Positions 676 through 16,153 of a stretch of 24,737 bases of DNA are shown piece after piece. Every line of letters begins with the position of its first letter. Positions within the stretch are counted from its first letter, which is position 1. The DNA comes from a virus (taxonomy: Duplodnaviria > Heunggongvirae > Uroviricota > Caudoviricetes). The DNA is taken from IMG/VR virus record IMGVR_UViG_2718218399_000013; one strand, written 5' to 3'. The notes beneath the pieces are model-generated. The model had not been told where the DNA came from and did no database searches. It worked only from the letters and a program-made list of their open reading frames with translations. The translations under genes and the position numbers were made by a program.

Positions 676-1632
676 GTGACTAGTTATTCAAACTTTTCCA
701 ATCAAATAAAAGAAACCATCAATAATAAATTCGATCATGAAATTCATGATTGGGACATTATAAAAAACTCAATCACAACTTTAATAAATAAAAATATCCA
801 TGGTGCAGGTAGAAATATCGTTGATTTTATAGATTTAGGTAACTGGGATTTTATTTCAAACTTTTCCTTTGATGACTCTACAAGAAGACTTGAATTAGAG
901 TGGCACCCCAATGATAAATTCCATATATATATTGAGTCCGTTGTGTTTGTCGAGTTTAATGACACTATATATGCTTTCTTAAAGGGATACTATCACAATC
1001 AGTTATCTCTAAATAGAATATATAATACAAAATGCTCTTCATGTTCATTTGAAAACTCAGGTTCTTATATGGTAGACGTTTATAGAACGGTTAAAAGAGT
1101 AAATGAGACAATCCAGACCCCAAATATAAATTGCTATACTACATGTATTTTAACAAGGCCCGCAAATGGTCATGTTACATCTACAGGCTTCTCACGAAAC
1201 CTCATGGATGCGATAAATATTTCATTAGCAGAGCACAAAATAGCCTCTTTACATAATGAAGTCATGAGTATTGAGGAATATGATCGTGATTCTTTACAAG
1301 AGAAAGGAAATACTGCCAGGAGATATTTAGAATATATTCTCATGCTTGTTAATATTCGTATAATGCATTTAAACAACGTTCAATACCAAGAGCAAATGCT
1401 AGGTAGTTTAGTTTCTGTTATTGAGGCTCTGGACTATGAACCATTAATGAAAAATGATGTTGAAATTACAAAGGACATCCTTAATGCTTGCAGCCACCAC
1501 GGGGGGGTTAGAATTGAAAAGAAAGATGTAATTTTTTCTTTGGAAGTTATTGAAAACTTAATTAAAGCCATAAAGAAAACCGACATAAATAAATTACAAC
1601 TCGATGGGATGTTTAAATCAATTCAAAAATAA
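676..1632 (+). CDS. hypothetical protein, 318 aa; AT-rich cargo gene between the distal att repeat and the alpha gene
   Basis: Long ORF with GTG start and a gagg RBS-like motif about 7 nt upstream; very AT-rich with Asn/Ile/Lys-rich product, contrasting with the GC-richer alpha gene; followed by a hairpin; no recognisable motif. Confidence 0.55.
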   Translation: MTSYSNFSNQIKETINNKFDHEIHDWDIIKNSITTLINKNIHGAGRNIVDFIDLGNWDFISNFSFDDSTRRLELEWHPNDKFHIYIESVVFVEFNDTIYAFLKGYYHNQLSLNRIYNTKCSSCSFENSGSYMVDVYRTVKRVNETIQTPNINCYTTCILTRPANGHVTSTGFSRNLMDAINISLAEHKIASLHNEVMSIEEYDRDSLQEKGNTARRYLEYILMLVNIRIMHLNNVQYQEQMLGSLVSVIEALDYEPLMKNDVEITKDILNACSHHGGVRIEKKDVIFSLEVIENLIKAIKKTDINKLQLDGMFKSIQK

Positions 1633-1764: not shown

Positions 1765-4098
1765 TTATTTCGCTGCAAACTCATCGCATTTTGGCAACCA
1801 GTCAGCATTGCTTTCCTCTCTTAGGGCCAGATTAGTCTGCATTCCTTGATTGGTCCGTCGTTTCTCATACTGCAGCCCATATTCCTTGAGCATTAACGGT
1901 AGCCCCTTGCCAAACATGGTCAGACTGAGCGTATTTTTATAGCCGTTAGCCTCCATGTAGACCAGATAGGCATGGTAGAGGTAAGTTCGAGGCTGACGTG
2001 GAACAATATTAGCGTTCCCCATAAACATGCCCGTGGTGTCAGGTAGGACCTCAAGGTAGCCGCAAAAATCAAAAGCTGAATCAGCATCACGTTTGATGGT
2101 GAGCGCTTCATCGGAGTTCTGCTGTGACTGAAGCAATGTCCTGGCACTCATTGGGTCGCTGAAACGCTGCATAAGCTGGCGAACAATCACCGCTAGCTCA
2201 CTGGCAATTTTCTCTTTGAGCTGGGTATCGCGTTCCTCCGGGGCTATCTGGTCGGGGAAATGCAGGATCACCCTTCGGCGTGAAACTCCACCACTACGAT
2301 CAGTGAAGCGCATCGGATTATTGTTCACAGCCAGGATGACCGCCGGGATGTGGGTTGAATAGGCGTTCTGATATTTGGGATCAACGGATACCGCATCGCC
2401 GCCAGTGATGGCTTTTAGTCCGGCCCCGTCACCGCTCCACTTTTCCTGGTCGGGAAGTCGAATCAGTGAAAAACCTATTAACGCAGCTCGTTCTCTTGGC
2501 GACTCAAGCATTTCAATGGTTGCCGAGGTCGCGTTATCTTCACCCGCCAGCATGGTTGCTATTTCAGCAAGAATACTCTTTCCACTTCCGCCAGGGCCAG
2601 TGACCTCCAGAAACAGCTGCCAGTCATAACGGTTAGCCAGCACCATAAACAATGCAGCCAGAATAATGTCCCGTTTTTCAGGATTAAAACCTGCGGCACG
2701 ATCCAGCCAGCGCCAGAATGCCGGGGCATGGGTTTCCAGTGACTCACCGTCAACGGGCTGCGTGTAATCCACCTCGCACAGCGTACGTAACCAGTGCTTC
2801 TTATCGTGCGGGCTGAACAATCCTGTCCGGGTATCGAGCACACCGTTGCGAAATCCGATAAGTTGCCGCGCCGGATTCTGCTGTTGCGGAACGATCAGTT
2901 TGAGGGTTTCCACGAGAGACGCAATTTTCGCGGATGAAAAAGGTGCGTCGAGGCGCTGAAACAGCGCAGCGACATCACGGGCAAAATCGGCGTAATAGAT
3001 AACTTTCCAGGCCCCCGCCTCATAGCGTGAAAGGAGCTGCCCGTTCGGGTCTACTGCCAGTGAATTTTTATAGTGATCCACTACCCTCTGCGCTTTTTCG
3101 CTGACGCTCAGCGCGGTAAATTCAGCTTCGCTCATTGTGTCGAAGGGGCTGGCAACAGCTGGTTTTATTACTTCATGAATTGCATGCCGGGTGGCTTCTT
3201 CGCCGTTTTGCGTGAATGCATCGTTCCAGTCACCAAACACAGGCGGGAGCGCCATTGTGCAATTGCAGGCCCCGGTAACAGCTGCGCCCCTTGTTTGCCC
3301 CGCACCGTTGAGATCGCGGTCAGCAGCAATAATTATCTGGTGCGTTGGGTACTCACTGCAGGCAATGCTCGCCAGGGAAAGGAAATTGACGGACGAAAAG
3401 GCCACCATGACAGCATCGCCAGTCAGATAGTTGATAGTAAGTGCGGTGGCATATCCTTCCGCTATCCAGAGCCGTTTGGCTGCTTTGGCAGTACCTTCAA
3501 CCAGGTAAAAGGCATTCTTAACCTGACCGCCTTTAAGGAAGCATTTGCCCCCATTAGCGTTGATTAACTGCAGATTTACCAGCTCTCCATCTGCATACAA
3601 TGGAACGACAAGATCTCCCGCGCGAAATGCCACACCACCGACTTTATGCATAGCGGTTAATTCCCGGCAAGGCAGTGCAGGAAACCCTTTACTCGTCAGA
3701 TAGGCATTGCCAGTGGTCTGGCGGGACTTATCAAACAAACGGGCAGCCAGCACTGCTGCAGCTTTTCTCCCGTCCTCTTTTTCAGGAGAACCAGATTCAA
3801 GCATTCCCTGAGATACTGGCAGCAGGTTTCCGATAATGCCGTTTATTCTGTCTGCCGCTTCACTAATGCCTACATCCAGTACTTTACTTACAAGCGCCAG
3901 GCCATCACCTGCCCCGCACTGGTTACAGAACCACGTTCCCCGCCCTTCCTGGTCATCAAATCGAAAGCGGTCTTTCCCGGCACAGACCGGGCAGGGCTGG
4001 TGCCGATTTTTCAGTACATTTACGCCCAGCGCAGGTAAAATTCTTGACCAGTGACCCCGAGCTGCTTTCTCAGCCTGGCTAACTTTCATTCCTGACAT
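1765..4098 (-). CDS. P4 alpha-type primase-helicase (zinc-binding primase, TOPRIM, D5-like helicase), 777 aa
   Basis: N-terminal CPVCAGKDRFRFDDQEGRGTWFCNQCG zinc motif, Walker A GPGGSGKS, 777 aa from the ATG at 4098 with RBS aaggagg 9 nt upstream (the ORF track's 4155 start adds a 19-aa extension without RBS); satellite-phage gene context. Confidence 0.85.
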   Translation of the reverse strand: MSGMKVSQAEKAARGHWSRILPALGVNVLKNRHQPCPVCAGKDRFRFDDQEGRGTWFCNQCGAGDGLALVSKVLDVGISEAADRINGIIGNLLPVSQGMLESGSPEKEDGRKAAAVLAARLFDKSRQTTGNAYLTSKGFPALPCRELTAMHKVGGVAFRAGDLVVPLYADGELVNLQLINANGGKCFLKGGQVKNAFYLVEGTAKAAKRLWIAEGYATALTINYLTGDAVMVAFSSVNFLSLASIACSEYPTHQIIIAADRDLNGAGQTRGAAVTGACNCTMALPPVFGDWNDAFTQNGEEATRHAIHEVIKPAVASPFDTMSEAEFTALSVSEKAQRVVDHYKNSLAVDPNGQLLSRYEAGAWKVIYYADFARDVAALFQRLDAPFSSAKIASLVETLKLIVPQQQNPARQLIGFRNGVLDTRTGLFSPHDKKHWLRTLCEVDYTQPVDGESLETHAPAFWRWLDRAAGFNPEKRDIILAALFMVLANRYDWQLFLEVTGPGGSGKSILAEIATMLAGEDNATSATIEMLESPRERAALIGFSLIRLPDQEKWSGDGAGLKAITGGDAVSVDPKYQNAYSTHIPAVILAVNNNPMRFTDRSGGVSRRRVILHFPDQIAPEERDTQLKEKIASELAVIVRQLMQRFSDPMSARTLLQSQQNSDEALTIKRDADSAFDFCGYLEVLPDTTGMFMGNANIVPRQPRTYLYHAYLVYMEANGYKNTLSLTMFGKGLPLMLKEYGLQYEKRRTNQGMQTNLALREESNADWLPKCDEFAAK

Positions 4099-4111
4099 TG
4101 TGCGGCCCTCC

Positions 4112-4435
4112 TTAGTGCAGCGCTGGTTTGTTGAGGTGACGGGAACAAAGTTCATCCATGACCGTCATTCCGAGCAGTGAGAGAACCGGACAGGCTTTAA
4201 GCGGCCCCGACTCCATCAGATCCGAAAGCAACGCGCAGGCAATTTCCAGCCCTCTTTGCTGCCCATGCTGGCGCAGATAGAACCCTTCCAGCTCGCGGGC
4301 TATGGCATCTTCAAGTTCAGCGAGCGTCAGGCCGGAATAACGTTCCTGATGATTGCTTAGAGCCAGCCAGGCACAGGCAACGGCACGGCGATACAGAGCG
4401 GCACGAAGTGCCAGAAGAGATTCACAGCATATCAT
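4112..4435 (-). CDS. small protein (107 aa) immediately upstream of alpha; position of P4 left-operon accessory genes (Cnr-like position)
   Basis: ORF translationally coupled to neighbours (1-nt overlap with the upstream ORF, 13-nt gap to alpha containing the alpha RBS); GC-rich like the P4-like core; function not recognisable. Confidence 0.5.
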
Positions 4436-6400: not shown

Positions 6401-7153
6401 ATGACAATCCCAGAACAGAACAATAACCCGATCGTTGAAATTTCTATCCCTGTTTCGACGCAACAGGCGCTTGAGAAAGTGAATGCCACCAAATCTGCAT
6501 GGCTTGAAGCACGTCGTCAGCAAAAAGCGGCAGCGGATAATATTGCGACAATCCGCCAGCGCCGCGCTGAAATGGAAGCCACGACGAACGCCCTGAATGA
6601 GGAGTGGCGCACGCTATTTCGTGAAAGTCAGGGCGTAGTCTCAAAGGAAATGAAAAAACTGCGCACGGAAATTGCGCTGGGACGAGAAACGCTTGAGGAT
6701 TTTGATGAGCTGCTGGCGGCTCAGGAAAGCGAAAATGCACTTTTGCCGCAGGAGGCTGCGGAATTAGCCGGAAAGTATATCCACGCGCACGACACCCTTG
6801 TGGGTATTCGCGCAAAACAAATCTGGGAAGATTTTATGCAGTCGCATGGAAAAGCACTAATCCAGACACTAAGCCTGCTCAAATCAACAATGGGCAGGGA
6901 AGCCAGCGCAGTTGTCGGTGTGGTGCATTCAGTTAATGACCCGGACACACTGCTGAAAGATTTTATTCATAAACATATCACCAGACCGGCTCTGACTAAC
7001 GATGCGATGCCCGAACAGGACCCCGTGTTTAAACTGGCGGGAGTTGCCCCGGATTATGCGGCCCGTCTGGATTTCAGTAATAAACTCTCTCCAGCAGCTA
7101 TGCATAAAATGAAGGTTCGTCAGGAACGTGCTGAGAAGGAGAAAGCAGTATGA
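6401..7153 (+). CDS. first gene of the satellite late operon, 250 aa; Sid-like (capsid size determination) by position and size
   Basis: ORF with ATG start downstream of the TGT-N12-ACA dyad; charged, helix-rich composition; stop overlaps the next gene start (ATGA); assignment positional only. Confidence 0.55.
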   Translation: MTIPEQNNNPIVEISIPVSTQQALEKVNATKSAWLEARRQQKAAADNIATIRQRRAEMEATTNALNEEWRTLFRESQGVVSKEMKKLRTEIALGRETLEDFDELLAAQESENALLPQEAAELAGKYIHAHDTLVGIRAKQIWEDFMQSHGKALIQTLSLLKSTMGREASAVVGVVHSVNDPDTLLKDFIHKHITRPALTNDAMPEQDPVFKLAGVAPDYAARLDFSNKLSPAAMHKMKVRQERAEKEKAV

Positions 7154-7701
7154 TGGCCCGAGTCACTCCAGACCAAGCGCTTATCAGTTTTAGAAATGCC
7201 CGTATTCTGTGGGCTGGACATAGTGAGAGCCGAAAAGCCGTTGAACAACAGATAGAATCACTCCTCACTGCCATGGAAAAACCAGCAGATTATGCTCGAC
7301 AGCTCGAATTACAGCGGGAACATCTGGATGTGCTGAAATGGCAAATTAACTGTGCTGCGCGCGAATGCATTTACTCGCAGCATCAACTGATGGAGGCCTG
7401 CACAGAAGACGCTCTCAGCAATTTTATGCAGGCGAATGGAGCAGCCCTGACATCTGCACTGGCTCCGTTCCTGAAGGGGCGCGGAGGGGTTGACGTTGCG
7501 TCCCGTATATTACGCAATGCTCTGGTTCGCCAGCTGGCAATAACACCGCCTGAAATTGCCGGGGATTATCGTATGATTCTGGATGAATCCGGTGTGATGC
7601 CTGACCCCATGATGGTTCGTGATTGCCAGAGCTCTTACACCCCTGCACAACAACTGCGCTTTCAGCAACGTCTGGATTACATTAACGGCATGCAGGAGTA
7701 A
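7150..7701 (+). CDS. Psu-like protein, 183 aa
   Basis: Translationally coupled to the upstream gene; size and segments such as KWQINCAARECIYSQHQ and FMQANGAALTSALAPFLKG resemble my recollection of P4 Psu; not verified by alignment. Confidence 0.5.
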   Translation: MMARVTPDQALISFRNARILWAGHSESRKAVEQQIESLLTAMEKPADYARQLELQREHLDVLKWQINCAARECIYSQHQLMEACTEDALSNFMQANGAALTSALAPFLKGRGGVDVASRILRNALVRQLAITPPEIAGDYRMILDESGVMPDPMMVRDCQSSYTPAQQLRFQQRLDYINGMQE

Positions 7702-7706
7702 TATTA

Positions 7707-7979
7707 ATGGCACTTAAATGTCCCGAATGCGGTACGACGGCACACGCCAGAACCTCCGCCTATGAAGCACCATCGGTTAAACGCTCATGGTATCAGTGCC
7801 AGAATCTTGAATGTTCCTACACATTTACCGCACTGGAAAGTGTGGATACGATAATCATGAAGCCCCGGCGCAATGAACAGGAATCAGAGAAAGCACAAAT
7901 GCCGGAAAAACAACAGCAAACTCTCAATCGCTATGGCTCCGCGTCAAAGCTGTCAAGCCGTCAGCAAATTCCTGTCTGA
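7707..7979 (+). CDS. Ogr/Delta-family zinc-finger late transcriptional activator, 90 aa
   Basis: N-terminal CPECGTTAHARTS ... YQCQNLECSYTF matches the Ogr/Delta C-x2-C ... C-x4-C zinc finger; RBS aggag upstream of the ATG. Confidence 0.8.
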   Translation: MALKCPECGTTAHARTSAYEAPSVKRSWYQCQNLECSYTFTALESVDTIIMKPRRNEQESEKAQMPEKQQQTLNRYGSASKLSSRQQIPV

Positions 7980-8215: not shown

Positions 8216-8388
8216 GTTAGATTATAAAATATCAAACGCCGGTGAGATCCATTATTGTGGAACCACCCGAAGGAAGTGTAGAGGCGAAAGTACCCAAAAT
8301 AATTTTGCAAATTATTTAGAAATGAACTGAGCGCTCGAAACGAAATATAATTTCGAGCACCCCAATTAGCAGTTATATTTTTAATGTA

Positions 8389-8955
8389 TTAAACAGGATA
8401 AAAACCAGAGCTTCCATTCTTATTTAAGTTATGGATTTTATTTGCATCATTAATTTTTATTTGGAACGTCGGACCTTTATTCTCAAGAATTACAATCTGG
8501 AAATTATAGTCCCTTTTGATTAATGCGTGATAAAATGAATCACTGAGACTGACGCTATTAACATCCGATAGAGAACCCCCTCTATCTTTATCAAAGTGCG
8601 TCACTAATGGACTATCAAGCACAACAAATCCAATGAATGGATTCCCTTTTCTTGATAAAAATTCCGCAAAGCAAATGGTAAATATAGCATGCATTACTGC
8701 ACGGGTACCTTTACCAAACATTCCTCGGCGTTTCCCATTGATATTAAAGTCATATGTATCTTCGTCAAATCGCACTTTGTTATCTTTAGAATTTTCAAAA
8801 TTTATATCATTCAAAAAGTCTTGCATCGCTATTTCTATATCATACAAATCAGCTACTGTTAAGGAGTCAAAGTCCTCGGCGGAGTATTTAAGTTCGTCAA
8901 CATCATCTTCTTTATCTTGTAATGAAGATAGAATGCTATGTTTTGTGTGATCCAT
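8389..8955 (-). CDS. C-terminal ABC-ATPase head fragment (Walker B / D-loop region), 188 aa; third piece of an SMC/Rad50-like ATPase
   Basis: FGKGTRAVMHAIF (degenerate signature-like) about 20 aa before GFVVLDSPL (Walker-B-like); start ATG overlaps the upstream stop as TAATG; AT-rich. Confidence 0.5.
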   Translation of the reverse strand: MDHTKHSILSSLQDKEDDVDELKYSAEDFDSLTVADLYDIEIAMQDFLNDINFENSKDNKVRFDEDTYDFNINGKRRGMFGKGTRAVMHAIFTICFAEFLSRKGNPFIGFVVLDSPLVTHFDKDRGGSLSDVNSVSLSDSFYHALIKRDYNFQIVILENKGPTFQIKINDANKIHNLNKNGSSGFYPV

Positions 8956-9545
8956 TAAAAGATTGTCTTTATATTCATAAAGTGATTCAAGAGATGAATG
9001 TATTGTTTTATATTTTTATCTTCTAACGTCTTAAAATCACTTTTTTCTGATTGATAAATTTCATTAACATCATTTTTTCTTAACATAATTAATTCATGTT
9101 CGCGAACATTAGATCCGATTGATTCAATTAATCCTTTCAGCTGGCTTTTGATTTTCAATTTTTCTGCATTACACGACAAAAAACAATCATCATATGATAT
9201 TTCATTTTCTTTTTTTTGCGGTGTATTACAGAACTCACAATAAATATCTGCAAAATTATTTAAATAGAAATTCGCCTGTGATACAACATCTATTCTTTGT
9301 AGATCTATAAAGTATTGGTCTTTAAGAAGACTAAATCTTTCAATGAGTAATGATAAGTATTTTTCCCTGTCACTGATTGAATATAATTCATCACTTAACT
9401 CTTTTAATAATTGCTTCTTATCATCAAGTGCATCAACAATACCTTTCAATATATCTTTCGATGATTCAATATCTTGCTCTACTTTCTCAAGTTCTCTTGA
9501 AACAATGACTTGATCATATTCAGGATAAATTAATTGCGCTTTCAA
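8955..9545 (-). CDS. coiled-coil middle segment of an SMC/Rad50-like ATPase with a possible zinc-hook motif, 196 aa; no ATG start, in frame with the upstream ORF across a single TAA
   Basis: Heptad-rich charged sequence; Cys cluster YCEFCNTPQKK...DCFLSCN; track start is TTG, first internal Met is near the C-terminus; upstream ORF is in the same frame, separated only by TAA at 9576-9578. Confidence 0.45.
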   Translation of the reverse strand: MKAQLIYPEYDQVIVSRELEKVEQDIESSKDILKGIVDALDDKKQLLKELSDELYSISDREKYLSLLIERFSLLKDQYFIDLQRIDVVSQANFYLNNFADIYCEFCNTPQKKENEISYDDCFLSCNAEKLKIKSQLKGLIESIGSNVREHELIMLRKNDVNEIYQSEKSDFKTLEDKNIKQYIHLLNHFMNIKTIF

Positions 9546-9575
9546 TTCCTCATAAATATTTGCAATTTGATTTTT

Positions 9576-10208
9576 TTAAAAATATCTTGCTTTTTTATTT
9601 GGTTTTTCTGCTAAGGAGTTAGTATCATCTCTCTGAGTTAAAAGGAATTTAAATTCAGACTTTCTTTTTGTCTCCTCGCTAGGAATATCAGAAAGAATTA
9701 ACGACTTCTCAGTTAACACTCTTAATTCATCAATACAAAAAAATTCAAAAACATTATTAAGATTAAATTTATGAAGAGTATTACTTAAGTTTGTTCTTAC
9801 TTTAGCCTCTTTGAAATTCAACCTACCATAAAAGTATGATGAAAAACTCTTTTTAGACGAAGCACTTTTGGAAAAAACCATCAACAGATTAGCTTCACTA
9901 ACATTTTCAATGCTCGAATCATATAATCTGTAATGGGCGCTATCCTGAAGAGACCTCTCAATTGTCATTACCCTACCTTGAAAATTAAATTCCAGATAGG
10001 CTAAATCATAACCTTGAGCATGATCGATATCTTTATTTTTTAGTTTTTCACTCCCTAATAAATATCGAATCAAATAATATATGTATGTTTTTCCAGAGTC
10101 AGAACCACCATATAAAATAGTCAATTTAGAACCAAATTCAATTATAGCATCTAATTTATTGAATCCGGTTACCTTTATTTTTCTGAACGTAAAAAAATTG
10201 TCATTCAT
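9576..10208 (-). CDS. N-terminal ABC-ATPase head (Walker A) of an SMC/RecF/Rad50-like protein, about 210 aa before an in-frame TAA
   Basis: FTFRKIKVTGFNKLDAIIEFGSKLTILYGGSDSGKTYIYYLI is a typical ABC/SMC N-terminal P-loop; candidate ATG starts at 10208 or 10226 (the track uses TTG at 10235); ends at TAA 9576-9578 with the next ORF in frame. Confidence 0.6.
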   Translation of the reverse strand: MNDNFFTFRKIKVTGFNKLDAIIEFGSKLTILYGGSDSGKTYIYYLIRYLLGSEKLKNKDIDHAQGYDLAYLEFNFQGRVMTIERSLQDSAHYRLYDSSIENVSEANLLMVFSKSASSKKSFSSYFYGRLNFKEAKVRTNLSNTLHKFNLNNVFEFFCIDELRVLTEKSLILSDIPSEETKRKSEFKFLLTQRDDTNSLAEKPNKKARYF

Positions 10209-10659
10209 AATTAAATTCCATATCATATTTGCCAATTTTATTTTTTATAATTGATTGCAACTGCTCATCAGGAATATCACTATATAACTTAACCACCAAA
10301 TTTATATTATGCTCCATCTGCGCAACATATTCATTATGTAGAGAATTTGTAAATGCATATGTTTTTTCAGAAGCTTTATATACAAAACCACGATGTGTAT
10401 AAATTTTTGAGGCTAGTTCATAGCCTTGCAACAAAGCCAATGATTCTAAAACAATCTCTCGTTTTAGGGCTAACTGAGCATCTCTACGGGGTATTGGAGG
10501 ATGAAGACTAATCTCTTCAGGTAAAAAATCCTTAAGATTTACTAAAATAAAATCAAAACAAATAAGCCGTTCAAGGCTTAATGAAGAAGGATAAATAGCG
10601 ACGAGCACTTTCGCCATTCGACATGCCACTTCTAAACTTGAATTATAAATTCTAACCAT
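10201..10659 (-). CDS. hypothetical small protein, 152 aa from the ATG at 10659; candidate small subunit of the cargo system
   Basis: ATG overlaps the upstream stop (TAATG); its stop lies 5 nt after the downstream ATG at 10208; AT-rich; no recognisable motif. Confidence 0.5.
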   Translation of the reverse strand: MVRIYNSSLEVACRMAKVLVAIYPSSLSLERLICFDFILVNLKDFLPEEISLHPPIPRRDAQLALKREIVLESLALLQGYELASKIYTHRGFVYKASEKTYAFTNSLHNEYVAQMEHNINLVVKLYSDIPDEQLQSIIKNKIGKYDMEFNYE

Positions 10660-11276
10660 TATCTCACCGTCCAAATTACTTCACCATCATTAACCAAATG
10701 ATGGCATATTCCTTTTTTATCATTTGCTTCACATATTTTTGATAGTACTGAATGTGCAATTGGTGTCAGAACAGCCTGCTTCAAGACTGCATTACACCTA
10801 ATAAATGCATAATTATGGTCTTCATAAAAGACGGGTTCAATTGAAGATGAAATGTAACATTTCAATGCTTTGAATACATCATCTTTAAATACTTCGCGGA
10901 CAAAAACCTCAAGCGAAGATGCAAAATAAAAATCATTTCTACTATTATTAAAGTGTCGTCTGTATGGATCATCAAGCTCTAAGAAAGAACTATAAGTTTT
11001 ATTTCCATGCTCTGAATAGGCTTGAAGCAGTGCATTAACATATACAGACTCTTTTTTTGAATTGTATGTTGGAATTTCATTTGGAGGGATTCTCACGACA
11101 TACAGCTCGTTAAAGTACTTAAAATAAAGGTGTGTATTTGCAATATCATTTAAAATCAATGATAAGGGTAGAGAGTAAAAAATACTAAAATCAAAATCCT
11201 CAATATATTTTTTTATTTCATCATCTAATGGAATATCAATCTTTTTAGTTATTTTTTTGAAATTGCTGAATCCCAT
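10659..11276 (-). CDS. hypothetical protein, 205 aa; possibly the C-terminal domain of the upstream Mrr-like nuclease ORF
   Basis: ATG lies 28 nt inside the upstream ORF with no clear RBS; one extra A in the A7 run at the junction would fuse the two ORFs in frame. Confidence 0.45.
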   Translation of the reverse strand: MGFSNFKKITKKIDIPLDDEIKKYIEDFDFSIFYSLPLSLILNDIANTHLYFKYFNELYVVRIPPNEIPTYNSKKESVYVNALLQAYSEHGNKTYSSFLELDDPYRRHFNNSRNDFYFASSLEVFVREVFKDDVFKALKCYISSSIEPVFYEDHNYAFIRCNAVLKQAVLTPIAHSVLSKICEANDKKGICHHLVNDGEVIWTVR

Positions 11277-11665
11277 GAATCAAGGACTGCTTTTTTAAGC
11301 TCGTTTTTATTTTTCAATAAATTAGAAAATGTAGTAGATAAATCATAGGGTGCCACAAAAAAGTACTTCTGAGGGATGGGATAATCACCATTCAGAGTAA
11401 AATAGATAAGTTTTCCAAACTCAACTACAACATCAGAGAACCCTAAACTTTTTTTGTACAGTTTGCATTGATAATTATCCCAAGAATAACCTTCTACGTT
11501 AGGATCCGATTTATATCCAACAACGTCTCTACCTTTATCTCCAGCTCCTCCCAAACGTTCGCTCCACGGGTAATCATCTGATTTACAGACAATAAGCCAA
11601 TCATGGACAAATACCTCCCATTGTTCATCATCCCATGTCAATATTTCCGAAAGTGGTTGAGACAC
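11249..11665 (-). CDS. Mrr-like PD-(D/E)xK restriction-endonuclease-fold protein, 138 aa; first gene of the cargo operon
   Basis: GGAGDKGRDVVGY ... YQCKLYKK matches the Mrr catalytic-domain pattern (G-x-G-D-x-G-x-D ... Q-x-K); GTG start with aaggag RBS embedded in the 3' end of int (int stop 3 nt upstream). Confidence 0.6.
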   Translation of the reverse strand: MSQPLSEILTWDDEQWEVFVHDWLIVCKSDDYPWSERLGGAGDKGRDVVGYKSDPNVEGYSWDNYQCKLYKKSLGFSDVVVEFGKLIYFTLNGDYPIPQKYFFVAPYDLSTTFSNLLKNKNELKKAVLDSWDSAISKK

Positions 11666-11668
11666 AAA

Positions 11669-12850
11669 TTAACTCCTTTTTAGTCTTTCAAATATCAAAT
11701 TACTGTACCAGTCCATCATAGACTTCCTTCCACTAAAATATTGAGCATGGTTATAAGTCCCCCTAATAGAATTTTTATCTACATGAGCCAACTGGATTTC
11801 AATCCAAGCACTCTCAAAACCTTGCTCATGCAGGATTGTAGAAAGGGTATGACGAAAACCATGTCCAGTGACTTTTCCTCCATACCCAATACGCTTAATG
11901 GCTTGATTTATACTCGCTTCGCTCATTGGCCTATTCGGATCGTTCCGCCCTGGAAAAACATAACGATAGTTCCCTGTCATGATCTTGAGTTCATTGAGTA
12001 AATCTACCGCTTGAGATGATAAGGGCACAAGATGTGGCCTACGCATTTTCATCCTTTCAGCAGGAATTTCCCAAATAGCGTTATCCAGATCAAATTCTTG
12101 CCATAATGCCGCGCGTAATTCGATGGTTCTCACACCCGTAATCATCAGTAATTTCGTGGCTATCTGGACAAGCTTACTCCCGGAGTAACCCTCTAAGGCA
12201 CGTAGAAAATCAGGTATCTCATCAGCTTTTAGGAATGGGAAATGATTGGATTGGTGTACTTCGAGAGCGCTGGAGAGATCAGCCGCAGGATTGTACTCCG
12301 CCCTACCCGTTGCAATTGCGTAGCGAAACACTTCGGAGCAACGCTGCCGCACTTTGCGCATTTTCTCCAACGCACCACGTTTCTCAATTTTACGCAGAAC
12401 GTTCAGCAGCTCTAGCGGTTTAATCTCTCCCACAGGCCTTGTTCCGACATAAGGAAAAATGTCGTTCTTAAACGCTTCCATGATGTCTGATGCATATCCC
12501 GCCGACCATTTAGCAGATTTAAGTTGATGCCACTCTCTGGCTATCTTTTCGAAGGCGTTCTCTGACTCTGTTTGCATAGCTAGCTTTTGCTCTTTTCGAA
12601 CCTCACTAGGGTTCTTTCCTTCTGCCACAAGTTTTCGAGCTTCATCACGACGGGAACGAGCATCGGCAAGGGTGATCGTTGGGTAAACACCAAGCGAGAT
12701 CATTTTGGGTTTGCCGGCATAGCGATAGCGGAACCGCCAACTCTTGCTTCCATTAGGTTCTATAAGTAATGACAACCCTAGCCCATCTCCAAATGTATAG
12801 GCTTTAGCTTCAGGCTTAGCGCGGCGAATCTGCATATCGTTTAAAGGCAT
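11669..12850 (-). CDS. P4-family tyrosine integrase, 393 aa
   Basis: N-terminus MPLNDMQIRRAKPEAKAYTFGDGLGLSLLIEPNGSKSWRFRY typical of P4/CP4-type integrases; C-terminal GHGFRHT ... Y catalytic region; adjacent to a partial thrW copy; the track's 12901 start adds 17 Cys-rich residues. Confidence 0.85.
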   Translation of the reverse strand: MPLNDMQIRRAKPEAKAYTFGDGLGLSLLIEPNGSKSWRFRYRYAGKPKMISLGVYPTITLADARSRRDEARKLVAEGKNPSEVRKEQKLAMQTESENAFEKIAREWHQLKSAKWSAGYASDIMEAFKNDIFPYVGTRPVGEIKPLELLNVLRKIEKRGALEKMRKVRQRCSEVFRYAIATGRAEYNPAADLSSALEVHQSNHFPFLKADEIPDFLRALEGYSGSKLVQIATKLLMITGVRTIELRAALWQEFDLDNAIWEIPAERMKMRRPHLVPLSSQAVDLLNELKIMTGNYRYVFPGRNDPNRPMSEASINQAIKRIGYGGKVTGHGFRHTLSTILHEQGFESAWIEIQLAHVDKNSIRGTYNHAQYFSGRKSMMDWYSNLIFERLKRS

Positions 12851-13012
12851 GTGTATAGGAATCCAGACCGAACAGGAACATATACACAATCCTATACACA
12901 TTCAGTACCGGATTCTACTGGATGGTTACGGACTACTATGGACTTAAAAGAATAAAAAATGTTATAAATCAGAGATTTTATGGACTAATACGGACGTTTG
13001 AGGAAGTTGAGA

Positions 13013-13405: not shown

Positions 13406-13771
13406 GTGCAGGATGTCATGTTAGGAGCGATAGAAAAACGCTTTGGCGATAAAGTACCGGAACAGTCCATCCAGTGGCTGACAGATAACGGTTCAGCGTA
13501 TAGAGCGCATGAAACACGGCAGTTCGCCAGAGAGTTGAATCTGGAGCCCTGCACAACGGCAATCAGCAGTCCTCAGAGTAATGGAATTGCAGAAAGGTTC
13601 GTGAAAACGATGAAGGAAGACTACATCGCGTTCATGCCGAAACCGAATGTAAGAACGGCATTGCATAATCTTGCAGTGGCGATCGAACATTACAATGAAA
13701 ACCATCCGCACAGTGCGTTGGGTTATCGCTCTCCGCGAGAATATCGACGTCAGCGGGTAACGTTAACTTAA
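13406..13771 (+). pseudogene. IS3-family (IS2-like) transposase, C-terminal DDE-domain fragment
   Basis: [25 protein letters not shown] ... [19 protein letters not shown] ... [15 protein letters not shown] resembles the IS2 orfB C-terminus; no intact upstream reading frame; IR-like sequence gataccccccctgtctggaaataagggggcaa follows at about 13775-13806. Confidence 0.7.
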
Positions 13772-13812: not shown

Positions 13813-14556
13813 TCAGATTCCCTGGTGAGTAAGAATTTTACTTTCTGAACTCCTCTGAGAGTATTGACTTGGAGAAACACCAAAATAACGTCTAAATACA
13901 TAAGTAAAGTATGAGACACTGGCATAACCACAGACCTTAGCTACTTTACTAATAGGATAACAACGAGTGCTGAGTAAATATTCAGCCATTTGCATCCTCT
14001 CATCAAGTATGATCTTACTGAATGATACCCCCTCTTCTTTCAATTTCCTCTTTAGTAAACTTTCGCTGAGATATAATCTTGATGATATATCCTTAAGACG
14101 CCATGGTGCAGATAAATCCGTATGAATAATCGTTTTAACTTTAGCCCCTGTGCTTTTCAAACATCCAAACAGAAATACTCCAAATTGTTTTTCAGAAGAA
14201 AATGCAGAGAGACATGTAAAAGCAATAGACTCATCAAAAATTTCTATGTATTCAGCACAGTGATTAGCCCAACTAATTAATCCTTTAATTAAACTGAAGT
14301 CAGCAAAGTTTATTTTTAAATAAGATGGATATTCCCTACAATCAGAAATATCCCTTAAGTTATTAGCTTTCAAATAGCGACTAATAAACTCAGCGCCAAA
14401 ATCCGCCACTATCACTCTTTCAGGATATGTCAGGAAAAAATCTCTAGAGCTAGAGTCGACAAGTACAGATGAACCTCTCTCCAGAAACACACTCTCTTTT
14501 CCGAAATAAACATCAAAGGACTCCAAAATCAATATAACTGAACATGTAGTTGCCAT
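13813..14556 (-). CDS. AraC-family transcriptional regulator (AppY/GadX-like), 247 aa
   Basis: C-terminal double HTH WRLKDISSRLYLSESLLKRKLKEEGVSFSKIILDERMQMAEYLL ... GYASVSYFTYVFRRYFGVSPSQY; AT-rich; long AT-rich upstream region. Confidence 0.8.
   Translation of the reverse strand: MATTCSVILILESFDVYFGKESVFLERGSSVLVDSSSRDFFLTYPERVIVADFGAEFISRYLKANNLRDISDCREYPSYLKINFADFSLIKGLISWANHCAEYIEIFDESIAFTCLSAFSSEKQFGVFLFGCLKSTGAKVKTIIHTDLSAPWRLKDISSRLYLSESLLKRKLKEEGVSFSKIILDERMQMAEYLLSTRCYPISKVAKVCGYASVSYFTYVFRRYFGVSPSQYSQRSSESKILTHQGI

Positions 14557-15283: not shown

Positions 15284-16153
<870 letters not shown>

What the first reader, a model, noticed from the sequence alone, without database searches (positions are those of the whole stretch)
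8389..11665. AT-rich cargo operon in the P4-like psu/delta–int hotspot: Mrr-like nuclease plus SMC/Rad50-like ATPase, candidate defence system
Six tightly packed minus-strand ORFs sit between the late operon and int, the position where P4-like satellites are known to carry variable anti-phage cargo. The sequence shows an Mrr-type PD-(D/E)xK motif (GGAGDKGRDVVGY...QCKLYKK) in the first ORF, an ABC-ATPase P-loop head (GGSDSGKT), a coiled-coil segment with a CxxC...CxxxC cluster, and a Walker-B-like C-terminal head (FVVLDSPL). The logic (nuclease effector + small subunit + SMC-like ATPase) resembles Lamassu, but the six-ORF layout and the unknown 205-aa and 152-aa proteins do not obviously match a described architecture. 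It may be a decayed Lamassu-Mrr-type system or a distinct variant. The cargo is AT-rich (around 30% GC by eye) against a GC-richer satellite core, and its first gene is translationally coupled to int.
Basis: partly seen in the sequence, partly recalled or inferred. Interest (0 to 1): 0.85.

Follow-up and report, generated by a model that had tools for sequence, protein, structure and literature searches.

The report
Broken Lamassu defence operon in O157 satellite
The six small genes are the fragments of an ordinary three-gene Lamassu anti-phage system (nuclease LmuA, small LmuC, SMC-like ATPase LmuB), broken by two single-base deletions and one stop codon; it sits in the cargo slot of the P4-like prophage Sp2 of E. 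coli O157:H7 and has already been published as 'Lamassu-var'.

Summary
In detail: six abutting minus-strand ORFs, 31% GC against a 50% GC satellite core, with every quoted motif present. The window is E. coli O157:H7 and the element is prophage Sp2, a P4-like satellite.

The six ORFs are three genes:
- **LmuA**: Mrr-like PD-(D/E)xK nuclease plus ABC-3C CTD6, split 138+205 aa by a 1-nt loss in an A-run.
- **LmuC**: Pfam MC2, 152 aa, intact.
- **LmuB**: short SMC/Rad50-like ATPase with a CxxC hook, split 210+196+188 aa by TTA>TAA at invariant Leu211 and by a 1-nt loss in an A-run.

Undoing the three lesions gives proteins of 335 and 606 aa. These align without gaps to intact orthologues in Proteus mirabilis (88-93% identity) and Pantoea (76-86%). 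The Pantoea copies sit in the same int-lmuACB-delta-psu slot.

All about 309 E. coli complete genomes carrying the locus (the O55:H7/O157:H7 clone) have the LmuA frameshift. Sublineages add further lesions, which is neutral decay.

The locus is annotated in RefSeq and was published as 'Lamassu-var' (Domainator, NAR 2024). That paper does not mention the breaks and reports only smaller T-even plaques.

Verdict: a pseudogenised member of a known system, not a new architecture. Low interest.

The parts
10659..11665 (-). lmuA pseudogene: Mrr-like PD-(D/E)xK nuclease domain plus ABC-3C CTD6, now two ORFs (11249-11665, 138 aa; 10659-11276, 205 aa)
   Evidence: The fragments match PADLOC LmuA PDLC03852 at profile positions 10-140 and 141-333. 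The repaired protein matches 10-333 of 336 in one stretch, E 8e-89. Pfam CTD6 scores 8e-30. The repaired 335-aa protein aligns without gaps to intact Proteus (92.5%) and Pantoea-type (86.3%) LmuA.
11252..11258 (-). LmuA frameshift site: an A7 run (T7 on the + strand), inferred A8>A7 loss of one base; 0-frame stop TAA at 11249-11251
   Evidence: Adding one A restores ...DSWDSAISKKITKKIDIPLDD..., colinear with the orthologues' ...SWDSAISKKISKKVDIPLD.... None of 309 E. coli records carries the A8 form.
11450..11551 (-). Nuclease catalytic motifs GGAGDKGRD ... QCK (D43, D47, Q66, K68)
10201..10659 (-). lmuC (ABC-3C middle component 2), 152 aa, intact in this window
   Evidence: Pfam MC2 6e-30 and PADLOC LmuC PDLC03871 2.5e-36. 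It is 90.8% and 81.6% identical, without gaps, to the Proteus and Pantoea-type orthologues.
8389..10208 (-). lmuB pseudogene: short SMC/Rad50-like ABC ATPase, now three ORFs (9576-10208; 8955-9545; 8389-8955)
   Evidence: The fragments match PADLOC LmuB PDLC03863 at profile positions 3-199, 231-412 and 428-608. The repaired protein matches 3-608 of 610, E 1.7e-116. The repaired 606-aa protein aligns 1-606 with no gaps to P0001 (87.8%) and P0002 (75.6%). The Sakai record annotates it as a pseudogene, ECs_0293.
9576..9578 (-). Nonsense codon TAA replacing TTA (Leu211, invariant in the seven closest homologues)
   Evidence: F210, L211 and K212 are invariant in alignment A1. The orthologues have TTA or CTG here. 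The TTA form survives in exactly 10 E. coli records: seven O55:H7 strains, one unserotyped record, 493/89 and LSU61.
9013..9017 (-). LmuB frameshift site: an A5 run, inferred A6>A5 loss of one base
   Evidence: Alignment to the Proteus DNA (GGTAAAAAATAT against GATAAAAATAT) places the loss here. The repair restores ...EDKKYKTIHSSLESLYEYKD..., against KKYKKIHLLLESLYEYKD in Proteus.
10086..10109 (-). LmuB Walker A (GGSDSGKT)
   Evidence: G34, S36, D37, G39 and K40 are invariant in 22 homologues. Coordinates.
9228..9239 (-). CxxC (CEFC) zinc-hook-type motif at the coiled-coil apex
   Evidence: C324 and C327 are invariant in 22 homologues, including ones at 21-24% identity. CxxC hooks are described for many short LmuB proteins (PMC12663957).
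8605..8628 (-). LmuB Walker B (FVVLDS, the hhhhD[QSTE] form of short Lamassu)
   Evidence: D532, S533 and P534 are invariant. The motif definition is from PMC12663957.
8329..8362 (-). Terminator-like hairpin just downstream of the lmuB stop
   Evidence: Consensus scan: 13-bp stem with 6 GC pairs. This is a pattern match only.
11669..12850 (-). P4-type tyrosine integrase (intS) directly upstream of lmuA
   Evidence: Pfam Arm-DNA-bind_3, Phage_int_M and Phage_integrase. Sakai ECs_0289.
6401..7979 (+). sid-like, psu and delta genes of the satellite, forming the other flank of the hotspot
   Evidence: Pfam Psu (two proteins) and Ogr_Delta. Sakai annotation.

Best explanation
The region is a pseudogenised short (type II, lmuA-lmuC-lmuB) Lamassu system of the Mrr-effector subtype. 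Pfam files the same kind of system under ABC-3C (MC2 and CTD6). It sits in the variable defence slot between delta/psu and int of the P4-like prophage Sp2 of E. coli O157:H7.

**How the intact form works (from published Lamassu work, not tested here).** An LmuA1-LmuB2-LmuC1 complex holds the nuclease inactive. The LmuB dimer, helped by LmuC, senses dsDNA ends or phage replication intermediates. ATP turnover releases LmuA, which oligomerises through its C-terminal domain. The activated nuclease then degrades DNA and aborts the infection.

**What happened here (shown).**
- lmuA lost one A from an inferred A8 run.
- lmuB lost one A from an inferred A6 run.
- lmuB then gained TTA>TAA at Leu211.

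This leaves six ORFs.

**Inferred.** The two frameshifts predate the O55:H7/O157:H7 split. The nonsense codon arose on the branch leading to typical O157:H7. The system is non-functional as a canonical Lamassu and is drifting neutrally in a satellite that no longer moves.
For: **Family assignment.**
- Each fragment hits consecutive, non-overlapping parts of single PADLOC LmuA, LmuC and LmuB profiles.
- Pfam gives CTD6, MC2 and AAA_23 above their curated cut-offs; the SMC_N match to the first LmuB piece is below its cut-off.

**Repair test.**
- Three one-base edits yield proteins of 335 and 606 aa that match the profiles end to end.
- These proteins align without gaps to intact orthologues at 76-93% identity.

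**Intact copies in the same slot.** An intact int-lmuA(335)-lmuC(152)-lmuB(606)-delta-psu-sid array exists in P4-like elements of Pantoea alhagi and in a metagenome contig. Proteus mirabilis has an intact lmuACB next to an int remnant.

**The split is specific to this lineage.**
- 26 of 28 close LmuB homologues are 594-612 aa.
- Nearly all of the 120 listed LmuA homologues are about 300-380 aa; the only short ones are the E. coli fragment cluster and one other short protein.

**Real, not sequencing error.** The same lesions occur in about 309 independent complete genomes.

**Continuing decay.**
- O55:H7 strains have an extra A6>A5 frameshift in lmuB.
- LSU61 has A7 at the same run.
- DEC5A has a stop in lmuC.
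- NE1092-2 and JEONG-1266 each have a further 1-nt deletion.
- Three strains carry an IS1203 insertion.

**Published requirements for activity.** All three components and a working ATPase site are needed for Lamassu defence (Millman 2022 preprint; PMC12663957).

**Mobility.** Sp2 showed no excision, replication or packaging in Sakai, and its P2-like helper Sp13 is defective (PMC2669165).
Against: - Johnson et al. (PMC11754643) cloned the O55:H7 TB182A copy, which itself has the lmuA break and two lmuB frameshifts. They saw smaller T2, T4, T6 and RB69 plaques at the highest dilutions, so some residual activity of the fragments is not excluded.
- lmuC is intact in the window, and the fragments keep plausible starts (an ATG for the LmuA C-terminal half; a TAATG overlap for the LmuB C-terminal piece).
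- The lmuA break lies on an A_AAA_AAA heptamer where -1 slippage would recreate the wild-type protein.
- No expression or phenotype data were generated here.
Confidence: 0.9

Rival explanations
1. A working 'split Lamassu' variant (the published 'Lamassu-var'). The five or six polypeptides assemble non-covalently, with the N- and C-terminal head halves of LmuB pairing as engineered Rad50 head constructs do, and still restrict some phages.
For: - The cloned O55:H7 copy reduced T-even plaque size (PMC11754643).
- The fragments have usable start codons and tight or overlapping junctions.
- lmuC is intact in the window.
- The locus is retained at >=99% identity in about 309 genomes.
Against: - The reported phenotype is weak: plaque size only, and only at the highest dilutions.
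- The break points are homopolymer slips and a nonsense codon at a residue invariant in the seven closest homologues, not domain boundaries conserved elsewhere.
- Sublineages add further frameshifts, a stop in lmuC and IS insertions, so lmuB is not under purifying selection.
- The O157 copy differs from the tested O55:H7 copy: it has an additional stop.
- The >=99% identity simply reflects the youth of the clone.
Confidence: 0.06
2. Recoding rather than decay of lmuA. Programmed -1 ribosomal frameshifting or transcriptional slippage on the A7 run (A_AAA_AAA followed by TAA) makes low levels of full-length toxic LmuA, as a dosage or phase-variation control.
For: The heptamer is a classical slippery sequence next to a 0-frame stop. 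A -1 shift yields exactly ...AISKK|ITKKIDI..., the orthologous sequence.
Against: - Intact orthologues have no homopolymer here (TCAAAGAAAATA in Pantoea, TCCAATAAAATA in Proteus) and read through in one frame, so the site is not a conserved recoding signal.
- 0 of 309 genomes have switched back to A8, which argues against phase variation.
- lmuB is independently broken at two places that are not slippery, so full-length LmuA would lack its partner.
- Any 1-nt loss within an A-run produces this pattern trivially.
Confidence: 0.03
3. A new six-gene defence architecture unrelated to described systems, or sequencing or assembly artefacts that create false breaks.
For: Only the naive ORF map and the absence of NCBIfam names for the fragments.
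Against: - Every ORF maps to part of an LmuA, LmuC or LmuB profile.
- The lesions are identical in hundreds of independently sequenced complete genomes from several technologies.
Confidence: 0.01

Closest known systems
'Lamassu-var' of Johnson et al., Domainator paper (NAR 2024, PMC11754643), cloned from E. coli O55:H7 TB182A, CP038295:4116517-4120474
   Same: The same locus in the same prophage slot. Only 10 real nucleotide differences from the window over about 5 kb. It shares the lmuA frameshift and the lmuB frameshift at 9013-9017. It is that paper's cluster 1, with 259 hotspots in 2718 E. coli genomes.
   Different: TB182A keeps Leu211 (TTA) but has an additional A6>A5 frameshift at 9036-9041. 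The paper calls it a previously undescribed Lamassu variant and does not use the words frameshift, pseudogene, truncated or split.
Intact lmuACB orthologues in Proteus mirabilis (L006), Pantoea alhagi CP019706 (L007) and a Logan contig (L008)
   Same: Same three genes in the same order, with the same GTG start for lmuA close behind the int stop. The two Pantoea-type loci also share the int...delta-psu-sid P4-like context. Identities are LmuA 86-93%, LmuC 82-91% and LmuB 76-88%, all without gaps.
   Different: Their reading frames are uninterrupted (335, 152 and 606 aa). They have no A8 or A7 homopolymer at the lmuA site. The Proteus copy lies beside a decayed int near smpB.
Lamassu-Mrr (DefenseFinder subtype; the E. 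coli SE15 system validated by Millman et al. 2022)
   Same: LmuA with an Mrr-type restriction-endonuclease domain, plus LmuC and an SMC-like LmuB. It acts by abortive infection and needs all three genes and the ATPase site.
   Different: No DNA-level similarity to any E. coli locus outside the O55:H7/O157:H7 clone was found, even in distant mode, so any relationship is distant. The SE15 system is intact and active. It was not compared directly here.
DdmABC / Lamassu Vc-Cap4 of Vibrio cholerae (cryo-EM structures; PMC12663957)
   Same: A short Lamassu with an LmuB of about 600 aa, Walker A Gx4GKT, Walker B hhhhD[QSTE], the small LmuC, and LmuA as an N-terminal nuclease plus a C-terminal domain. 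This gives the mechanistic template.
ABC-three-component (ABC-3C) systems, as filed in Pfam
   Same: Pfam MC2 (PF20288) and CTD6 (PF20282) hit well above threshold, and RefSeq uses these names. That these are the same systems as type II Lamassu is my own knowledge of the literature; it was not tested here.
   Different: Nothing beyond the breaks.

Membership tests
Lamassu (short / type II, lmuA-lmuC-lmuB) | LmuB: an SMC/Rad50-like ABC ATPase of about 600 aa with Walker A, a long coiled coil and Walker B hhhhD[QSTE] | tested here: met
   The sequence is present but fragmented. PADLOC LmuB PDLC03863 covers profile positions 3-199, 231-412 and 428-608 in the three ORFs, and 3-608 of 610 after repair (E 1.7e-116). 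GGSDSGKT and FVVLDS are conserved.
Lamassu (short / type II, lmuA-lmuC-lmuB) | LmuC: a small middle component encoded between lmuA and lmuB | tested here: met
   A 152-aa ORF at 10201-10659. Pfam MC2 6e-30 and PADLOC LmuC 2.5e-36.
Lamassu (short / type II, lmuA-lmuC-lmuB) | LmuA: a variable N-terminal effector domain fused to a conserved C-terminal domain | tested here: met
   PADLOC LmuA PDLC03852 is matched at 10-140 and 141-333 by the two ORFs and at 10-333 after repair (8e-89). Pfam CTD6.
Lamassu (short / type II, lmuA-lmuC-lmuB) | Uninterrupted reading frames for all three genes (a complete system) | tested here: not met
   lmuA has one frameshift. lmuB has one nonsense codon and one frameshift. 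All 309 E. coli copies carry the lmuA break.
Lamassu (short / type II, lmuA-lmuC-lmuB) | Anti-phage protection that depends on the ATPase and the effector | not testable with these tools
   Only published data exist: a plaque-size reduction for the O55:H7 copy, with no mutant controls mentioned in the sections read (PMC11754643).
Mrr-like PD-(D/E)xK nuclease (Pfam Mrr_cat) | A significant match to the Mrr_cat profile | tested here: inconclusive
   The window's own protein, as found or repaired, gives no Mrr_cat hit at E<=0.1. 14 of 41 homologues do, with a best E of 1.6e-6.
Mrr-like PD-(D/E)xK nuclease (Pfam Mrr_cat) | A catalytic D ... (D/E/Q)xK motif on the core sheet | tested here: met
   GDKGRD ... 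QCK, with D43, D47, Q66 and K68 invariant in 41 homologues. That the D-QxK variant is typical of Mrr is my own knowledge.
Mrr-like PD-(D/E)xK nuclease (Pfam Mrr_cat) | The restriction-endonuclease fold | tested here: met
P4-like satellite defence hotspot (between psu/delta and int) | P4 core genes flanking the cargo: int on one side, delta-psu-sid on the other, with an alpha primase and ash in the element | tested here: met
   Pfam hits for all of these. The Sakai record labels 'prophage Sp2, P4-like phage'. Johnson et al. report about 31% Psu identity to P4 for this cluster and regard it as a more distant satellite lineage.
Programmed -1 frameshift / recoding site | A slippery site conserved in orthologues, with both frames required | tested here: not met
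   The A_AAA_AAA heptamer is present in the window, but intact orthologues lack the homopolymer and use a single frame.

The most novel reading that the evidence does not exclude
The fragments are not dead. A 'split' Lamassu could retain partial, phage-specific activity. It would consist of separately translated LmuB head halves and coiled-coil piece, intact LmuC, and LmuA either as two chains or restored by -1 slippage on the A_AAA_AAA site. This would explain the T-even plaque-size phenotype reported for the O55:H7 copy and the retention of the locus across the O55:H7/O157:H7 clone.
Probability: 0.07. Interest if true: 0.55.

Novelty: already known. Interest (0 to 1): 0.2.

Why it matters
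As a discovery it matters little. The family (Lamassu / ABC-3C), the Mrr effector subtype and the P4-like hotspot are all described, and this exact locus is annotated and published.

Three modest points remain:
- **A correction to the literature.** The most frequent 'P4-like hotspot' cluster in E. coli, reported as a new Lamassu variant with in vivo activity, is a frameshifted copy of a canonical three-gene system whose intact form exists in Proteus and Pantoea. The weak phenotype should be read in that light. The repaired or orthologous operon is the construct worth testing.
- **A counter-example.** A 2026 preprint reports that defence pseudogenes are rare in P4 hotspots, under 1%, because systems are swapped before they decay. 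Here a system decayed in place. That fits a satellite showing no excision, replication or packaging, with a defective helper.
- **A lineage marker.** The order of lesions follows the known O55:H7 > sorbitol-fermenting O157 > LSU61 > typical O157:H7 series, so it gives a small marker for those lineages.

Tried and rejected
- **NCBIfam:** the scan of the six ORFs gave nothing usable.
- **Sequence searches of the PDB:** with repaired LmuA, the LmuA family profile and the LmuB profile, these gave only noise or a marginal SMC-head hit at E 0.0055. No solved close relative was found by sequence.
- **Pfam Mrr_cat:** it does not hit the window's own protein. The Mrr assignment rests on homologues, the motif and the fold.
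- **First frameshift placement:** my first repair of the lmuB frameshift, at CTCTT^GAA, was wrong by about 25 nt. DNA alignment to the Proteus orthologue moved it to the A-run at 9013-9017.
- **Short probe for the TTA codon:** an 81-nt probe found nothing because of low-complexity masking. A 261-nt probe worked.
- **Distant blastn:** run across E. coli genomes to find other relatives, such as the SE15 Lamassu-Mrr, it returned only the same clone.
- **Rejected readings:** sequencing artefact, a novel six-gene architecture and conserved programmed frameshifting (see the rival explanations).
- **Not used:** metagenome and viral contig scans, the representative-protein search and an LmuB structure prediction. 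The HMM and orthologue evidence was already decisive.

Full report
**Where the window comes from.** The 3.4-kb region is 100% identical to E. coli O157:H7 genomes, including Sakai and EDL933. In Sakai it lies inside the feature 'prophage Sp2, P4-like phage'. Sp2 is flanked by yagP on one side and by the lambda-like remnant Sp1 on the other. Pfam confirms the satellite core:
- alpha primase (Zn_Ribbon_Prim, Toprim_3, D5_N, Pox_D5) at 1765-4155
- DUF5375
- Ash
- a Sid-like Psu paralogue at 6401-7153
- Psu at 7150-7701
- Delta at 7707-7979
- a P4-type tyrosine integrase at 11669-12850

The finding therefore sits exactly in the delta/psu-int slot, which Rousset et al. 2022 (PMC9122126, listed) described as a defence hotspot.

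**Check of the observation.** All six minus-strand ORFs are present at the stated coordinates.
- The cargo is 30.9% GC, against 50.3% for the core.
- Every quoted motif is present.
- The lmuA GTG start lies 4 nt after the int stop, with an AAGGAG Shine-Dalgarno inside the int 3' end. The same spacing is seen in Pantoea.

Two ORF starts need small corrections: LmuC is 152 aa from the ATG at 10659, and the LmuB N-terminal piece is 210 aa from the ATG at 10208.

**What the ORFs are.** PADLOC assigns the ORFs to consecutive parts of three profiles.

| ORF(s) | Profile | Profile positions matched | E-value |
|---|---|---|---|
| 138 aa | LmuA PDLC03852 | 10-140 | 9e-41 |
| 205 aa | LmuA PDLC03852 | 141-333 | 4e-44 |
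| LmuC ORF (scanned as 157 aa from TTG; 152 aa from ATG 10659) | LmuC PDLC03871 | n/a | 2.5e-36 |
| 219 aa | LmuB PDLC03863 | 3-199 | 8e-50 |
| 196 aa | LmuB PDLC03863 | 231-412 | 1.6e-21 |
| 188 aa | LmuB PDLC03863 | 428-608 | 5e-37 |

Pfam gives these matches:
- ABC-3C CTD6 for the 205-aa ORF (8e-30)
- ABC-3C MC2 for LmuC (6e-30)
- AAA_23 above its cut-off, and SMC_N below its cut-off, for the P-loop piece

Six ORFs are therefore three genes in pieces.

**The three lesions.**
1. *lmuA.* The two frames meet on an A7 run (11252-11258). Adding one A gives ...DSWDSAISKKITKKIDIPLDD....
2. *lmuB, nonsense.* A single in-frame TAA (9576-9578) replaces TTA. This is Leu211, which is invariant in the seven-sequence LmuB alignment. 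Early-branching strains still have TTA.
3. *lmuB, frameshift.* One base was lost from an A-run at 9013-9017, placed by DNA alignment with the Proteus orthologue.

After these three edits:
- LmuA (335 aa) matches its PADLOC profile over 10-333 of 336 (E 8e-89).
- LmuB (606 aa) matches its profile over 3-608 of 610 (E 1.7e-116).
- Both align without a single gap to intact proteins: LmuB at 87.8% to Proteus mirabilis and 75.6% to Pantoea alhagi, and LmuA at 92.5% and 86.3%.
- The unedited LmuC is 90.8% and 81.6% identical to the same orthologues.

**Intact relatives and their context.** In Pantoea alhagi (L007) and a Logan contig (L008) the order is int, lmuA (335 aa, GTG start), lmuC (152 aa), lmuB (606 aa), then delta, psu, sid, alpA, ash and the alpha primase. 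That is the same P4-like slot. In Proteus mirabilis (L006) the intact operon lies beside a decayed integrase remnant near smpB. Gene callers had shortened lmuA in two of these records by missing the GTG start, but the frames are open.

Among database homologues, full length is the rule:
- 26 of 28 close LmuB hits are 594-612 aa.
- LmuA hits are about 300-380 aa, apart from the E. coli fragment cluster (P0035, 692 member sequences) and one other short protein.

**Domain claims.**
- *Mrr-like nuclease.* The window's own sequence does not reach Pfam Mrr_cat, but 14 of 41 family members do, with a best E of 1.6e-6.
  - G42, D43, G45, D47, Q66, C67 and K68 are invariant.
  - An AF2 model of the 138-aa piece has pLDDT 92.9 and the alpha-beta-beta-beta-alpha-beta core.
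  - Foldseek agrees in kind but with weak E-values.
- *LmuB.* Walker A is GGSDSGKT. Walker B is FVVLDS, the hhhhD[QSTE] form given for short Lamassu in PMC12663957. A CxxC is invariant across 22 homologues down to 21% identity. This fits the Rad50/SbcC-type zinc hook described for many short LmuB proteins.

**Population picture.**
- The locus occurs in 309 of 5426 complete E. coli genomes, always at >=99% identity. Distant-mode blastn finds no other E. coli relative.
- A probe carrying the repaired A8 junction matches all 309 records at 98.9% and none at 100%, so the lmuA frameshift is fixed.
- The ancestral TTA codon survives in exactly ten records: seven O55:H7 strains, one unserotyped record (FDAARGOS_946), the sorbitol-fermenting O157 strain 493/89, and LSU61.
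- 493/89 carries only the two shared frameshifts, with a 417-aa N-terminal LmuB ORF.
- Further independent lesions are seen:
  - A6>A5 at 9036-9041 in O55:H7 strains from different sequencing projects
  - A7 at the same run in LSU61
  - an internal stop in lmuC in DEC5A
  - extra single-base deletions in NE1092-2 and JEONG-1266
  - IS1203 insertions in three strains

This is the signature of a gene set no longer under selection.

**Literature.**
- Johnson et al. (Domainator, NAR 2024, PMC11754643) extracted Psu-int hotspots from 2718 E. coli genomes. Their largest cluster (259 hotspots, 3-9 CDSs, Psu about 31% identical to P4 Psu) was 'related to Lamassu systems' and 'not previously described'.
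  - They cloned CP038295:4116517-4120474 as 'Lamassu-var' and saw smaller T2, T4, T6 and RB69 plaques at the highest dilutions.
  - That accession is O55:H7 TB182A. Its copy differs from the window at only 10 positions over about 5 kb and has the lmuA break plus two lmuB frameshifts.
  - The paper does not use the words frameshift, pseudogene, truncated or split.
- Millman et al. (2022 preprint) defined the expanded Lamassu family, including Mrr effectors, validated a Lamassu-Mrr from E. coli SE15, and showed that the ATPase site, the effector and lmuC are all required.
- PMC12663957 supplies the mechanism used here. An LmuA1B2C1 complex senses dsDNA ends or replication origins. Release of LmuA depends on ATP hydrolysis. 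LmuA then forms a tetramer through its C-terminal domain, and the nuclease is activated.
- Asadulghani et al. 2009 (PMC2669165) found no excision, replication or packaging of Sp2 in Sakai, and a defective P2-like helper (Sp13).
- A 2026 preprint reports that defence pseudogenes are rare in P4 hotspots, under 1%. This locus is an exception, and it sits in a satellite that does not appear to move.

**Rivals.**
- *A functional split system* cannot be excluded outright because of the published plaque-size effect. It is disfavoured by the nature of the breaks, by their absence in other species and by the continuing accumulation of lesions.
- *Recoding at the A_AAA_AAA site in lmuA* would recreate the wild-type sequence. 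However, intact orthologues lack the homopolymer, no genome has reverted, and lmuB would still be broken.
- *Artefact and 'new architecture'* are refuted.

**Verdict.** This is a pseudogenised short Lamassu with an Mrr-like effector in the P4-like prophage Sp2 of E. coli O157:H7. It belongs to a known family, in a known hotspot, at an annotated and published locus. The 'distinct variant / candidate defence system' framing and the high interest score are not. What is left is a correction to how 'Lamassu-var' should be read, and a small example of in-place decay of satellite cargo.

Noticed in passing
window 676-1632 (+): A 318-aa ORF (Sakai ECs_0304) in AT-rich DNA (29-35% GC) at the far end of Sp2, beyond the alpha primase. 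It has no Pfam or PADLOC hit. It may be a second cargo slot of the satellite.
   Followed up: partly
window 9036-9041 (A-run inside lmuB): This homopolymer is A6 (in frame) in the window, A5 in O55:H7 strains (TB182A, RM12579, DEC5A) and A7 in LSU61. All the frameshift lesions in this AT-rich operon that were placed against flanking sequence lie in A-runs.
   Followed up: yes
E. coli records H1-H3 (NZ_CP089270, CP089034, CP089032), matching window 8300-11700: Three O157:H7 strains carry an IS1203 (IS3-family) insertion inside the Lamassu remnant. In addition, one of the 312 matching places lies on a record classed as a plasmid.
   Followed up: no
window 15329-16153 (+), 13813-14556 (-), 13406-13771 (+): In the adjacent Sp1 remnant there is a 274-aa protein with a LEM-3-like GIY-YIG nuclease domain, an AraC-family regulator in AT-rich DNA, and a partial IS3-family transposase (ISEc48 fragment in the Sakai annotation).
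   Followed up: partly
L007 8545-9553 and L006 8546-9553: The gene calls held for the Pantoea alhagi and Proteus mirabilis contigs shorten lmuA to 201 and 145 aa because the GTG start is missed. The 335-aa frame is open in both.
   Followed up: yes
protein P0027 (Logan contig, 344 aa): A database protein 96% identical to the LmuB N-terminal piece that also carries a Pfam MC2 hit. It looks like an lmuC-lmuB read-through or fusion call in some assembly of this clone.
   Followed up: no
L006 (Proteus mirabilis) 8400-8545: The intact Proteus lmuACB lies just downstream of a decayed P4-type integrase 3' end (with an in-frame stop), in an island near smpB. There the satellite has decayed and the defence operon has stayed intact, the reverse of the O157 situation.
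   Followed up: partly
window 11669-12901 (-): The longest int ORF is 410 aa from the ATG at 12901. RefSeq annotates 393 aa from the ATG at 12850 (MPLNDMQIRR...), the same length as the Pantoea-type integrases.
   Followed up: partly
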